Counted from the first letter of the stretch, positions 6,948 to 12,663 are shown. The stretch: DNA of 64,000 nt from Curvularia clavata (GCA_023920165.1 CP089277.1:2914001-2978000), one strand, 5' to 3'. Numbers and translations are program-made. Notes: generated by a model from the letters alone, not told the origin.

Positions 6948-8559
<1,612 letters not shown>

Positions 8560-9257
8560 TTCAAGTTTGACAAAGAAGTGTTGGATACAAGGACTGTCTA
8601 TCAGTGGCTCGAGCGTGCAGATATGGCACAGTTTGTGACCTACAGGCTTTTACATAATTTCTTGCCATATACAAATCTTCGTTTACTTGCATTTAGGCTC
8701 GGTTGCTGTGTGATTTTTAATATCTGAGTTCCGGAAGTTAATGAGGGGTCAAGGCAAATGCCTTGGCAGTTGATTTTGTTCACCTCGCTGTAAACCCACA
8801 AGGCAAACGAACCCTTGAAGTTCTCCATTATTTTTTAGAATATGAATAAGGAATCTCTTTTTGAACTTTGAGACGGGCAGCATGAGCCATACAAGAGTCT
8901 CGATGGCGGGTAAAGTGATAAGTGTAAAGTTAGGCAATCAGAACGTTGTTTACACATATGCAACACAAAACCCAGGGATTTCCACAATATACAACTAGTA
9001 TACGTATGCACAAGAATTGATGCTTCCATCTTATGTGGTACATGGCTGCGATGGCTTTGGAGATGTTCCTTTTCTGTTCCCCACCCAAATACAATTGCAA
9101 TTGCACGTCGCGCCTCGGACATGGCCCGTGCACCGACCAGGGTCCTCTAGCGCAGTAACTTTTTCGATTCCTACAACTTTGGTCTTGCACTGCAAGTCGA
9201 ACTTTTTTCGTGTCAGTCTCCCACGCCCCGAACCACGCACGATTTGGCGATTTCACA

Positions 9258-11461
9258 ATGTCGCCTACTACGGTCGAGTCTAGCAATAAGAGGAAGCGAT
9301 CCCACAAGAGCAAGAAGAGCGCAGAAGCTGCTGCTGCGCCGGCGCATAATGGCGTAGAGAAGGCGCGCAAGAAGGCACGCAAGGCCAAGGAGGTCGAAGC
9401 TGCTGTGGAGGATCCGGTTGTTGAGGATGCGTCTGCGCATGAAGACAGCGACGAAGAGGAGGTCGAAAATCAATCTGAATCTAAGAAGGATAGCACGGAG
9501 GCGACTGCTCCCAAAGAGGCTGAGAGCGAGGATGAAGCCGACAACGAGAACGACGATAGCAAGCTCGAAGAACTCCCCACCGGCAGCAACGCTCTCGATC
9601 TCCCCTCGGGCACTTCCATGCCGACACCTAACCCAGTTCTTTTTGAAGAGCTCAATCTCTCTGAGCGTACAATGAGCGCCATCAAGGAAATGGGCTTTGA
9701 GAAAATGACAGAGATCCAACAAAAAGCAATCCCGCCGCTCTTGTCAGGCAGGGATGTGCTCGGTGCGGCCAAGACAGGTAGCGGAAAGACGCTTGCCTTT
9801 CTTATACCCGCGATTGAGATGCTTTCGCAGTTGCGATTTAAGCCCCGCAACGGTACCGGTGTCATTGTCGTGAGCCCGACCCGAGAACTGGCGCTCCAGA
9901 TCTTTGGCGTGGCACGCGAGCTCATGGCAAACCACAGCCAGACTTTTGGTATCCTGATTGGAGGAGCGAACCGGAGCGCAGAGGCAGAAAAGATTCGCAA
10001 GGGATTGAACTTGGTTATCGCCACACCCGGAAGACTGCTGGACCACCTCCACAATACGCAGGGCTTTGTTTTCAAGAATCTGCGTTCGTTGATCATCGAT
10101 GAAGCAGACAGAATATTGGAAGTGGGATTCGAGGATGAAATGGTGAGACTGGGTAAATTATGATTTGTAGGACATGTGCTAACTCTCCCCGGTAGCGATC
10201 CATCATCAAGATTCTGCCCACCGAGCGTCAAACCATGCTGTTCTCCGCCACACAGACGACAAAGGTCGAGGACCTCGCCAGGATCTCGCTCAAGCCAGGT
10301 CCTTTGTACATTAATGTCGACCACCGAGCCGAACACAGCACCGTGCAGGGACTGGAGCAAGGCTATGTCCTGTGTGATTCAGACACACGGTTCAGGCTGT
10401 TGTTCAGCTTTTTGAAGAAACGGTATGTGACAATCGCTATGTATATTTTAGAGTGTTTTACTAACTTTGCGTAGTATGTACCGGATTTTTGTGGCCCATG
10501 TCTTGGGACTGTCCAAGTATTTACTAACTCATGTGCAGATCAAAAGAAGAAGGTCATTGTTTTCCTTTCATCCTGTGCATCGGTCGATTTCTACAGCGAA
10601 CTTCTCAACTACATTGACTTGCCTGTGCTTGGTTTACACGGCAAGCTCAAACAGCAAGCACGAACCAACCGCTTTTTCGAGTTTGTGAATGCCCAGAGTG
10701 GCACACTCATCTGTACCGACGTAGCAGCACGAGGTCTCGATATTCCTGAAGTTGACTGGGTGATTCAGTTTGATGTAAGGATATATGCTAGCGAAGAAGT
10801 TGTGTGCAAGCTGCTGACATTGCTAGCCTCCGGATGATCCACGAGACTACATCCACCGCGTCGGACGAACAGCAAGAGGTGCCAACGGCAAAGGCAGGAG
10901 TCTCATGTTCTTGCTGCCGTCAGAAGTTGGCTTCTTGAAGCTTCTCAAGGAGAACCGGGTACCATTGGTTGAAGTAAGTGGTAGCTGGAGTAAAGGCAGT
11001 GAGGCGAGTGCTGACTCTTTGGTTCCAGTTCGAACTGCCCAGCAACAAGATTCTCAACATCCAGAGCCAACTTGAGGCTTTGATGTAAGTTTTCAATCAC
11101 ACTGAAGTGAGCAGGCAGAAGAAACTGATGACGGTTGTAGATCGAAGAATTACTACCTGAACAAGAGTGCCAAGGATGGATACCGGTCCTACCTGCAGTC
11201 ATATGCTAGCCACAGTCTGCGCTCAGTGTTTGATGTGCACAAGCTGGATCTCGTCAAAGTGTAAGTCGATGTGTGACTATCTTGTCGACTGTGTACTAAT
11301 GTTGGACTAGGGCCAAGAGCTTTGGATTCTCGACGCCGCCGCGCATCGACATCAGCCTGGGCGCAAGCTTGAGTCGCGATAAGAAGGTGGAGGGGCGAAG
11401 AGCGTACGGCAGCCAGCCGCAGCAAGGACGACGACCAATGAAGCAGGGCAGGCGGTTTTGA
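9258..11461 (+). CDS. HAS1: DEAD-box RNA helicase Has1 (DDX18 family), 606 aa
   Basis: Exons 9258-10142, 10196-10421, 10539-10774, 10827-10973, 11029-11084, 11141-11260, 11311-11461. Motifs [72 protein letters not shown]. Confidence 0.97.
10422..10538 (+). other. [D1,2] spliceosomal twin intron (stwintron) in HAS1
   Basis: Internal intron 10423-10474 (GTATGT..TACTAAC..TAG) splits the donor of the external intron (G10422 + TATGT at 10475; TACTAAC 10522-10528; CAG 10536-10538). Only two-step removal gives in-frame [17 protein letters not shown]. Confidence 0.88.
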
Positions 11462-12663
11462 GGCAATGCATGGAGCAGAGAGGTACTGATGGGAGTTTGG
11501 CGTACTAAAATATTATGCCGTCTAGGGCAGTGCTTGAGGGATCATGGCTGTAGTCGCATTACATGTTTGGTCAAAACAAGGCACAAAGATTTTTTTTGAG
11601 TGAAGTGTTGATAGGCGGACATGCAACTTGTCAACGTGGTACATGTTGGATGCTGTGCCATGCAAGGGCAGGGCTCCCTCGAATGGCGAGCGAGTGGGCT
11701 TTGGAGGGGCCAAAAAAGTCTGACGGGCGCAAACTGCCAGTTCACTCGTGGCTTGCATGCAGCAGGACGACGACGACCTTGAGTCTGTCAGCTCGTGGCA
11801 GCCAGCCCTACGCAGAGGGGCCCAGACGTGCCAAATGTGACGGGGGCTGTATGGGTGATGCGCTGGCAAGCTGGGCCAGGGTGTGTTTGCCAGGGTCGGG
11901 GGCCAATGGCAGGGCAGAAACGAGGGGCAAAAGAGAGGCGGATGCGTCCGTCCGTGGGTGGGCTCGGCATCATCACCCCTGGTTACCAGCCGGGTAACTA
12001 GATGGGCTAGCTAACAGAAGGCCGAAACATGACGGTGGTATAGTAGTCGCACTCTTTTGGCGGTGAGGGATGCAGGCTGGTCCGAGGCAAAGCAAAGCAG
12101 ACGGCCCACGGTTCAGAGCAGCGTCAAGCAAGGCACAGAGTAAGAATAGCAATCGAGTTGAGGGTTTAGTGACGTGGGTTTTGCTTTTTGGCGTGTGCGA
12201 CCAGCCATCTTTTGCGCCGACGGGACTGTGCCGCGCAGAGGCTGGTAATGGCCAACGGCGGCGGCCACGAGGTTTTTCTCAGGCACGTTGGGCGTCTCGT
12301 GGTGGCTGGGTAGACTGGGTAGACAGCATCCAGCCCAGAAGATCAGGTTAGACACACTGCGACTAGCAACTAGCAGTCCCCTCCCCTTTCTCCCTGACGT
12401 CCTGCCGCCGTGCACTTGGCCTCTCATCACCATCATCATCGCCGCTCTCCCCGCCCCCCCAAAAGCGCAGCCTCTCACGACGGGCGGTTAGCGCCGACCG
12501 GGATCTGCTGCCAGACGCCTTGACCCAGCTTTCTCTCCACCATCGCTGGGGACGACGCTGTTCCTACGCCAGCTGCCTCGACGCCAGCTCCCTCCGAGCT
12601 TCAAACCCCATTGTCACTCGCACGACACTCGCTGTCTGTGCCTCTTCGTGGCGCCGGTATGTC

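What the first reader, a model, noticed from the sequence alone, without database searches (positions are those of the whole stretch)
10422..10538. Intron nested inside another intron's donor site ([D1,2] stwintron) in the helicase gene HAS1
Seen: the upstream exon ends AAG AAA C and the downstream exon starts AT CAA AAG, so the junction must be phase 1. The visible donor GTATGT at 10423 is phase 2. The segment reads C|G[GTATGT..TACTAAC..TAG]TATGTA..TACTAAC..CAG|AT. Removing the 52-nt inner intron (10423-10474) joins G10422 to TATGT, which rebuilds a perfect GTATGT donor for a 65-nt outer intron. The total CDS then sums to 1821 nt and gives [17 protein letters not shown]. One-step splicing 10423-10538 leaves an extra G and a stop about 26 codons later. 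Known: [D1,2] stwintrons are a described but rare fungal intron architecture that gene predictors miss. Inference: this instance may be unreported, and the mis-spliced NMD-type product could tune Has1 levels.
Basis: partly seen in the sequence, partly recalled or inferred. Interest (0 to 1): 0.88.

Follow-up and report, generated by a model that had tools for sequence, protein, structure and literature searches.

The report
Twin intron in fungal HAS1 helicase
The HAS1 RNA-helicase gene of this Curvularia fungus is interrupted by a 117-base "intron within an intron" of an already described rare type, which transcripts show is removed exactly and which most public gene models of this fungal group get wrong.

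Summary
At 10422-10538 the HAS1/DDX18 gene (best protein match Curvularia clavata, 100%) carries a 117-nt intervening sequence that begins GG and ends AG. It contains a complete 52-nt intron (10423-10474) followed by TATGTA...TACTAAC...CAG. Spliced RNA contigs from two studies and one metatranscriptome join 10421 to 10539 exactly, while the other five introns are GT..AG. An independent DNA contig matches the region without a difference. No single canonical excision gives this mRNA. Only one two-step canonical route has branch sites for both steps, and it is the [D1,2] stwintron route. The splicing intermediate was not seen, because only contigs were available, so the two-step order is inferred. 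Eight of nine named Curvularia/Bipolaris gene models are wrong at this junction. In 19 of 19 related metagenomic loci (Alternaria-, Pyrenophora-like and others) the site holds no intron. The position is therefore lineage-specific and does not derive from an old phase-1 intron. The NMD-tuning idea has no support. This is a new member of a known kind. No searched paper links stwintrons with HAS1. This scan has noted stwintrons in other genes and genomes, but not in HAS1.

The parts
9258..11462 (+). HAS1/DDX18 DEAD-box RNA helicase gene, from ATG to stop. It has 7 exons, a 1821-nt CDS and 606 aa.
   Evidence: Gene model and translation. The protein is collinear with HAS1 proteins of Pleosporales. 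RNA contigs X8 and X10 cover all exons with all six intervening sequences removed.
10196..10421 (+). Exon 2, ending ...AAG AAA C (phase 1).
   Evidence: pieces 10195/10196-10421 of the RNA contigs.
10422..10538 (+). Complete [D1,2] stwintron, 117 nt, GG...AG.
   Evidence: RNA joint 10421^10539 'skips 117, ends GG..AG', with no positional ambiguity, in X8, X10 and X14. It is the only match of search model A in the window.
10422..10422 (+). G1 of the split donor of the external intron.
   Evidence: Read from the sequence. It is absent from the mature RNA.
10423..10474 (+). Internal intron, 52 nt. Donor GTATGT is at 10423-10428, branch box TACTAAC at 10459-10465 (branch A inferred at 10464), and acceptor TAG at 10472-10474.
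   Evidence: Its size and signals match the other five introns of the gene, which are 50-56 nt. Its excision is inferred, not observed.
10475..10538 (+). Remainder of the external intron (65 nt together with G10422). Donor positions 2-6, TATGT, are at 10475-10479, branch box TACTAAC at 10522-10528 (branch A inferred at 10527), and acceptor CAG at 10536-10538.
10474..10480 (+). Competing canonical donor GTATGTA in the primary transcript. It shares G10474 with the internal acceptor. Using it first leads to out-of-frame dead ends.
   Evidence: Sequence and computed translations. No such product was seen in the contigs.
10539..10774 (+). Exon 3, starting AT CAA AAG. The first base is A, so no alternative [A2,3] route exists.
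   Evidence: The rule for the [A2,3] alternative comes from passages of PMC9024468 and PMC5639578.

Best explanation
The 117 nt at 10422-10538 are a [D1,2] spliceosomal twin intron in the HAS1 helicase gene. The spliceosome pairs splice sites across short introns, as is usual in filamentous fungi. It first removes the ordinary 52-nt internal intron 10423-10474 (GTATGT...TACTAAC...TAG). That step joins G10422 to TATGTA at 10475 and creates a new perfect donor GTATGT. A second ordinary reaction then removes the 65-nt external intron up to CAG at 10538 and joins C10421 to A10539, giving His371 (C+AT). Shown here: the DNA sequence, the exact mature junction in RNA, the lack of any single canonical route, and the reading frame. 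Inferred: the order of the two reactions and the existence of the intermediate. The element sits at an intron position that is empty in Alternaria- and Pyrenophora-like relatives. By read-through of faulty gene models it appears shared by Bipolaris species, so it was most likely gained in the Bipolaris/Curvularia lineage.
For: Mature junction: it is 10421^10539 (skips 117, GG..AG, no ambiguity) in spliced contigs X8 (depth 165) and X10 (depth 236) from two studies of the same organism. It is also in a root metatranscriptome contig of X14 (depth 4.4, 30 letters on the short side). The same contigs remove the five other introns as GT..AG.
DNA check: contig X3 record 14 covers 10400-10618 with 0 differences.
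Route enumeration: 0 single GT/GC..AG excisions give the observed mRNA. There are 3 two-step canonical routes, all starting at donor 10423. Only 10423-10474 followed by the 65-nt intron has a branch motif at a workable distance for both steps.
Motif and size: the region is the only match of the published [D1,2] motif formula in the window, against 0.19 expected by chance. The internal intron (52 nt) is the size of the gene's other introns (50-56 nt).
Protein: the product is collinear with 27 of 32 aligned HAS1 orthologues at this junction. The 5 exceptions are the Curvularia/Bipolaris models.
Relatives: Bipolaris models that read into the element begin R-Y-V or R-H-V, as CGG TAT/CAT GT would give.
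Literature: [D1,2] stwintrons are excised in two steps with a detectable intermediate in A. nidulans lipS and in Hypoxylon (passages of PMC5639578; PMC9024468).
Against: The intermediate (10422^10475) was not observed. All four runs laid were assembled contigs, which drop rare forms, and no raw reads were available. Nothing here distinguishes two canonical steps from a single non-canonical cut before GG. Conservation of the internal splice signals in relatives could not be checked at the DNA level, because no Bipolaris or other Curvularia DNA was reachable. One named relative model (B. sorokiniana, P0124) has the correct junction, and I cannot say whether its gene has the same structure.
Confidence: 0.85

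Rival explanations
1. Single-step non-canonical splicing. U1 binds GTATGT at 10423, but cleavage occurs one base upstream (a GG-AG intron). The 117 nt leave as one lariat branched at the downstream TACTAAC, and the internal TACTAAC/TAG are unused.
For: The only RNA evidence is the final junction with ends GG..AG, which this would also produce. No intermediate was seen.
Against: It needs cleavage at a non-GT dinucleotide next to a perfect GT donor. It also leaves unexplained a complete, consensus internal branch box and acceptor placed exactly so that the next five bases finish a perfect donor. At 117 nt the intron would be twice the size of the gene's other introns. Published [D1,2] cases tested by RT-PCR showed the two-step route (passages).
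Confidence: 0.08
2. Regulated unproductive splicing. The element exists to divert part of the HAS1 transcripts into frameshifted, NMD-sensitive products and so sets Has1 levels. The diverting routes would be one-step 10423-10538, or first use of the donor at 10474.
For: Both diverting routes are computable, and both give early stops. Occasional one-step missplicing of [D1,2] stwintrons is reported in Hypoxylon and Xylariales (abstract of PMC12403724; passages of PMC9024468).
Against: No such joint appears in any of the three RNA runs, although contigs cannot show rare forms. The papers describe missplicing as infrequent error, not regulation. Relatives manage without any intron at this site.
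Confidence: 0.05
3. Artefact. A one-base assembly error at 10421-10423 turns an ordinary phase-1 intron into an apparent stwintron, or the true product is the in-frame 629-aa isoform that uses GTGACA at 10427 and TAG at 10474.
For: A single extra G would be enough. The 10427-10474 model is open in frame.
Against: A separate DNA run matches 10400-10618 with 0 differences. Eight gene models from five species and several assemblies fail at the same junction, and their read-through begins R-Y/H-V. The RNA contigs carry 10421^10539, not the 629-aa form. Orthologues have no 23-aa insertion.
Confidence: 0.02

Closest known systems
Uniquely occurring [D1,2] stwintrons of Hypoxylon sp. CO27-5 and other Hypoxylaceae (PMC9024468; passages read)
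   Same: Both start 5'-G|GU. A complete internal U2 intron is followed by U2-6 of a second donor. Both fit the same motif formula, give a +1 frameshift if the distal sites are used in one step, and are missed by gene predictors.
   Different: This one is in a different class of fungi (Dothideomycetes, Pleosporaceae) and a different gene (HAS1). No sequence-similar copy was found in the 64-kb window. The intermediate is not shown here.
[D1,2] stwintron of the A. nidulans / A. niger lipS gene (PMC5639578; passages read)
   Same: The internal intron is 52-53 nt. The split donor lies between G1 and U2, it splits a codon after its first base, and auto-annotation got it wrong.
   Different: In lipS the intermediate was cloned and sequenced, and the stwintron arose at a position held by a standard intron in earlier-branching classes. 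Here the position is empty in all 19 relatives examined.
[D1,2]/[A2,3] stwintron of the Helminthosporium solani alternative oxidase gene (as summarised in the Background of PMC5639578; original paper not seen)
   Same: It is in the same order (Pleosporales; placement recalled). Two canonical introns overlap at one G (AG|T).
   Different: There the downstream exon starts with G, so two alternative routes give the same mRNA. Here it starts with A, so only the [D1,2] route is productive, and first use of the donor at 10474 is a dead end.
Sister stwintrons of Xylariales with near-terminal inverted repeats (PMC12403724; abstract, Introduction and Discussion read)
   Same: Both occupy a new, lineage-specific intron position. 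An 8-bp near-terminal stem can be drawn.
   Different: The stem is not beyond chance: 798 of 20000 shuffles reach it, and the fold z-score is 0.11. No sister copies were detected, although the whole genome was not available.
Recursive splicing at zero-length-exon ratchet points in long Drosophila and vertebrate introns (recalled; no paper read)
   Same: A 5' splice site is regenerated by a first splicing step and used in a second.
   Different: In recursive splicing both steps use the same upstream exon end, and the regenerated GT lies wholly downstream of the first acceptor. Here the first donor lies one base inside the intervening sequence, and that base becomes G1 of the second donor. The introns here are tiny, not long.

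Membership tests
[D1,2] spliceosomal twin intron (stwintron) | The intervening sequence starts with two Gs. The first is G1 of the external donor and the second starts the internal donor. | tested here: met
   GG at 10422-10423, followed by TATGT. The RNA joint ends are GG..AG.
[D1,2] spliceosomal twin intron (stwintron) | A complete canonical internal U2 intron (donor, branch element, acceptor) starts at base 2. | tested here: met
   10423-10474: GTATGT, ACTAAC 6 nt before TAG, 52 nt. It fits model A of PMC9024468.
[D1,2] spliceosomal twin intron (stwintron) | The bases just after the internal acceptor complete a canonical donor with G1, and are followed by their own branch element and acceptor. 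| tested here: met
   G10422 + TATGT(10475-10479) ... TACTAAC 10522-10528 ... CAG 10536-10538, 65 nt.
[D1,2] spliceosomal twin intron (stwintron) | The mature mRNA lacks the whole sequence exactly. This cannot be reached by one canonical reaction, and the frame is kept only in this way. | tested here: met
   The joint 10421^10539 appears in 3 RNA runs. Zero single canonical excisions reproduce it. The result is a 606-aa ORF collinear with orthologues.
[D1,2] spliceosomal twin intron (stwintron) | A splicing intermediate lacks only the internal intron, which is the experimental proof of two consecutive reactions. | not testable with these tools
   Only assembled contigs could be laid, and no joint 10422^10475 is listed. 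Contigs drop rare forms, so this says nothing either way.
[D1,2]/[A2,3] alternatively spliced stwintron | The first exonic base after the distal acceptor is G, which allows the acceptor-split route. | tested here: not met
   The base at 10539 is A. Removing 10474-10538 first leaves GCGTA|ATC and out-of-frame products.
Sequence-similar 'sister' stwintron / introner family | Similar copies occur at other loci of the genome, often with complementary near-terminal repeats. | tested here: inconclusive
   There are no similar copies in the 64-kb window beyond 10-mers. The terminal stem is not beyond chance. No whole genome is held.
HAS1/DDX18 DEAD-box RNA helicase | Full-length collinearity with named HAS1 orthologues, and DEAD, Helicase_C and PF13959 domains. 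| tested here: met
   87-97% identity over 508-608 aligned columns to the named Stemphylium, Alternaria and Pyrenophora proteins P0006, P0007 and P0024 (names). The hits carry precomputed PF00270, PF00271 and PF13959. Matches to bacterial DEAD-box models lie below their cut-offs, as expected for a eukaryotic protein.

The most novel reading that the evidence does not exclude
The whole stwintron entered an empty site of HAS1 as one unit in the ancestor of Bipolaris and Curvularia. On this reading the still unexplained [D1,2] propagation process described for Xylariales also operates in Pleosporaceae. It would be part of a wholesale replacement of this essential gene's introns, since none of its six positions was seen in Alternaria- or Pyrenophora-like loci. 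The alternative is a stepwise gain: a canonical intron arrives first, and a second intron later lands in its donor.
Probability: 0.3. Interest if true: 0.55.

Novelty: new member of a known kind. Interest (0 to 1): 0.42.

Why it matters
There are four reasons.

1. Annotation. Eight of nine named Curvularia/Bipolaris HAS1 models delete or insert residues at the start of the second helicase domain because predictors cannot model this element. The correct product is 606 aa with FLKKHQKKK.

2. Range of the class. It places a transcript-supported [D1,2] stwintron in an essential ribosome-biogenesis gene of Pleosporaceae. The essentiality is known from yeast Has1 and is recalled, not tested. Most described cases are from Xylariales.

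3. Origin. The site is empty in every relative examined outside the Bipolaris/Curvularia group. The gene is therefore a compact natural case for asking how stwintrons, and introns generally, are gained.

4. Robustness of splicing. The element is a pure [D1,2] with two computable dead-end routes. It could be used to measure how reliably intron definition picks the productive order. That is a modest use, not evidence of regulation.

Tried and rejected
- Whole-genome scan for further stwintrons or sister copies: no genome is held for this window.
- Intermediate or one-step junctions: none were listed, but all four runs were contigs, so this says nothing.
- Earlier notes of this scan: there are no look-alike stretches in other windows and no notes on this genome. 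Fifty stwintron notes exist on other genomes, and the eight shown concern other genes. A search for notes holding HAS1 and intron found none. None of these changed my reading.
- Near-terminal stem like the NTIRE-10 of Xylaria: an 8-bp stem with three G-U pairs exists. It is reached by 798 of 20000 interior shuffles, and the whole fold has z = 0.11 with 107 of 200 shuffles as good. I rejected it as evidence.
- Similarity between the internal and external introns: they share only the 10-mer around the branch box, so a tandem-duplication origin has no support.
- Literature search combining stwintron with Bipolaris, Cochliobolus, Curvularia, HAS1 or RNA helicase at two terms minimum returned taxonomy papers and was uninformative.
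- The NCBIfam scan only confirmed a generic DEAD-box helicase, because the library is prokaryotic.
- A roughly 92%-identical relative in run X3 aligns through 10429, and again from 10532. About 103 unaligned letters appear to lie between, against 102 skipped here. Its interior could not be read, so it is only a weak hint of a similar-sized element.

Full report
**What is there.** The window region 9258-11462 (+) encodes a DEAD-box RNA helicase. The translated first exon matches a 590-aa Curvularia clavata protein at 100%. It also matches many Pleosporales proteins that their sources name HAS1 or DDX18/HAS1 (7129 proteins at E<=1e-30 among 8000 scored, best 120 listed). The gene model has ATG at 9258 and five ordinary GT..AG introns of 50-56 nt: 10143-10195, 10775-10826, 10974-11028, 11085-11140 and 11261-11310. 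A sixth intervening sequence lies at 10422-10538. Removing exactly these 117 nt gives a CDS of 1821 nt with its stop and a 606-aa protein reading ...[19 protein letters not shown]....

**Anatomy.** Exon 2 ends AAG AAA C at 10421.
- 10422 is G.
- 10423-10474 is a complete 52-nt intron: GTATGT, TACTAAC at 10459-10465, six bases, then TAG.
- 10475-10538 reads TATGTA ... TACTAAC (10522-10528) ... CAG.
- Exon 3 starts AT CAA AAG at 10539.

Joining G10422 to 10475 creates GTATGT at the head of a 65-nt intron.

The published search formula for [D1,2] stwintrons (model A; passages of PMC9024468) matches the 64-kb window once on both strands, starting at 10422. The mean was 0.19 matches in 100 Markov-1 random windows. 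A strict-consensus version gave 0 matches in 300 random windows.

**RNA evidence.** Of 22 runs listed I laid four on 9100-11600.
- Two runs of the same organism from two studies (X8, X10) each hold one contig, of 2543 and 2004 letters. These contigs lack all six intervening sequences, so they derive from spliced RNA.
- Five joints have ends GT..AG.
- The sixth joint is 10421^10539, 'skips 117, ends GG..AG', with no letters that fit on either side. Its place is therefore unambiguous.
- A root metatranscriptome (X14) has the same joint in a small contig (depth 4.4, 30 letters on the short side).
- A separate DNA run (X3, another organism label) has a contig covering 10400-10618 with no difference. 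This argues against a one-base assembly error.
- The joints 10422^10475 (intermediate), 10422^10539 (one-step) and 10426^10475 (629-aa form) are not listed. All runs were contigs, which drop rare forms, so only the absence of the 629-aa form as the main product carries weight.

**Why two steps.** I enumerated every GT/GC..AG excision in 10380-10580.
- No single excision yields the observed mRNA.
- Three ordered pairs of excisions do, and all three start at the donor at 10423.
- Only one pair, 10423-10474 followed by the 65-nt intron, has a branch motif 4-20 nt before the acceptor in both introns.

That pair is the [D1,2] stwintron route. Such elements have been shown to be excised through a detectable intermediate in A. 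nidulans lipS and in Hypoxylon (passages of PMC5639578, and PMC9024468). Here the order of reactions is inferred, not observed.

The main rival is a single cut before GG. It would leave a perfect internal branch box and acceptor, placed exactly in front of TATGT, as coincidence.

Other first reactions are computable dead ends.
- One-step 10423-10538 keeps a G and stops after 26 wrong residues.
- The donor GTATGTA at 10474 overlaps the internal acceptor by one G. Using it first leaves GCGTA|ATC and gives early stops.
- Exon 3 starts with A, not G. The alternative [A2,3] route described for other stwintrons (passages) is therefore closed.

**Relatives: gene models.** I aligned the model with 32 of the 120 listed proteins. 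Of these, 27 are collinear at the junction (FLKK-H-QKKK or FLKR-N-LKKK). The 5 Curvularia/Bipolaris models all deviate, each in its own way.

Adding the cluster members brings the named Curvularia/Bipolaris models to 9, of which 8 are aberrant.
- C. clavata skips 16 residues.
- B. maydis C5 skips more.
- B. victoriae, B. zeicola, B. oryzae and two B. maydis models read into the element (KKRYVAMTIY..., KKRHVAMII...) before an invented donor.
- One B. maydis model reads KKRHKK.
- Only B. sorokiniana ND90Pr (P0124) has FLKKHQKKK. An unnamed 622-aa protein from a 2083-base contig (P0128, 95% identical to my model) has it too.
- Three 309-aa Logan members stop in intron 1 and do not reach the site.

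The read-through R-Y-V is what C GG TAT GT gives. R-H-V in B. maydis would fit GG CAT GT, that is, a GC donor. Codon degeneracy keeps both as hints.

**Relatives: DNA.** One metagenome scan with exon 1 gave 22 loci.
- Nineteen cover the junction. L007, L017 and L021 do not.
- In 19 of 19 the coding sequence runs straight through (for example AAGAAAC ACCAGAAG), with no intron.
- Seventeen of the 19 have introns elsewhere in the gene, so they are genomic. L008 and L013 show no intron in the part covered.
- Several loci are near-duplicates: L001/L006, L004/L005, L009/L010 and L018/L022.
- By best named protein, L001-L006 are Alternaria-like (97-99.8%). L018 and L022 are Pyrenophora-like (93% and 99%). 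L014 is Parastagonospora-like (96%). L008 and L015 are Plenodomus-like. Several others are Leotiomycetes-like.
- The Alternaria-like intron lies in the Asp codon after DPR, and the Pyrenophora-like introns lie near residues 214 and 508.
- None of these coincides with the six positions in this window (295.0, 370.33, 449.0, 498.0, 516.67, 556.67).

The stwintron therefore sits at a lineage-specific position. I found no relative with a plain phase-1 intron there.

**Other checks.**
- An 8-bp near-terminal stem can form. It is not beyond chance: 798 of 20000 shuffles reach it, and the fold has z = 0.11.
- No similar copy lies in the window.
- No whole genome was available.

**Comparison with what is known.** [D1,2] stwintrons are a described class. 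Passages of PMC9024468 report 117 in Hypoxylon sp. CO27-5 and more than 1500 across Hypoxylaceae. The abstract of PMC12403724 reports 288 sequence-similar ones in 14 Xylariales. Passages of PMC5639578 describe lipS in Aspergillus and an alternative oxidase case in Helminthosporium solani.

Twelve papers in the searchable library contain the word stwintron. None also contains HAS1. The two that contain 'helicase' refer to a POLQ-like HelQ gene. Earlier stwintron papers in subscription journals were not searchable, and supplements were not opened, so 'unreported' holds only for these searches.

**Verdict.** This is a real, transcript-supported [D1,2] stwintron. It is a new member of a known kind. 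Its practical value is for annotation, and it has some evolutionary interest as a lineage-specific gain in an essential gene. The proposed tuning of Has1 through missplicing has no support here.

Noticed in passing
window 7915-8559 (+) and 9258-11462 (+): The gene just upstream is a MAP kinase; its last exon translates to a typical MAPK C-lobe. Many public models fuse it with HAS1 into 1000-1050-aa 'MAPK protein MPS1' or 'multifunctional fusion' proteins: P0003-P0005, P0045, P0059 and P0121-P0124. The C. clavata HAS1 model itself is mis-named 'MAPK protein MPS1'. The X10 RNA contig begins at 9196 and the aligned part of the X8 contig at 9227, preceded by 28 unaligned letters, so neither reaches the kinase gene. 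A contig end is not a mapped transcript start, so this is consistent with a separate gene but does not show it.
   Followed up: partly
window 10143-11310; loci L001, L004, L018, L022, L009, L014: None of the six intron positions of this HAS1 gene was seen in the Alternaria-like loci (one intron, in the Asp codon after DPR) or the Pyrenophora-like loci (introns near residues 214 and 508). The intron set of this essential gene seems to have been replaced within Pleosporaceae.
   Followed up: partly
proteins P0003, P0121, P0123 (Bipolaris maydis models): Read-through into the element gives R-H-V instead of R-Y-V. This would fit GGCATGT, an internal intron with a GC donor, in B. maydis. I had no DNA to check it.
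   Followed up: no
protein P0124 (B. sorokiniana ND90Pr) and P0128 (unnamed, 2083-base contig): These are the only two close relatives with the correct FLKKHQKKK junction. P0128 looks transcript-derived. Whether the B. sorokiniana gene has the stwintron, a plain intron or none is unknown.
   Followed up: no
run X3, record 13, laid on window 10223-10429 and from 10532: A contig about 92% identical in the exon keeps AAACGGTATGTG. It realigns at the distal acceptor, with about 103 unaligned letters apparently between. This may be a relative with a similar-sized but diverged element.
   Followed up: no
window 10423-10430 with 10529-10536: An 8-bp stem with three G-U pairs brings the internal donor and the external acceptor together in the MFE and centroid folds. 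It recalls the near-terminal repeats of Xylaria stwintrons but is within chance.
   Followed up: yes
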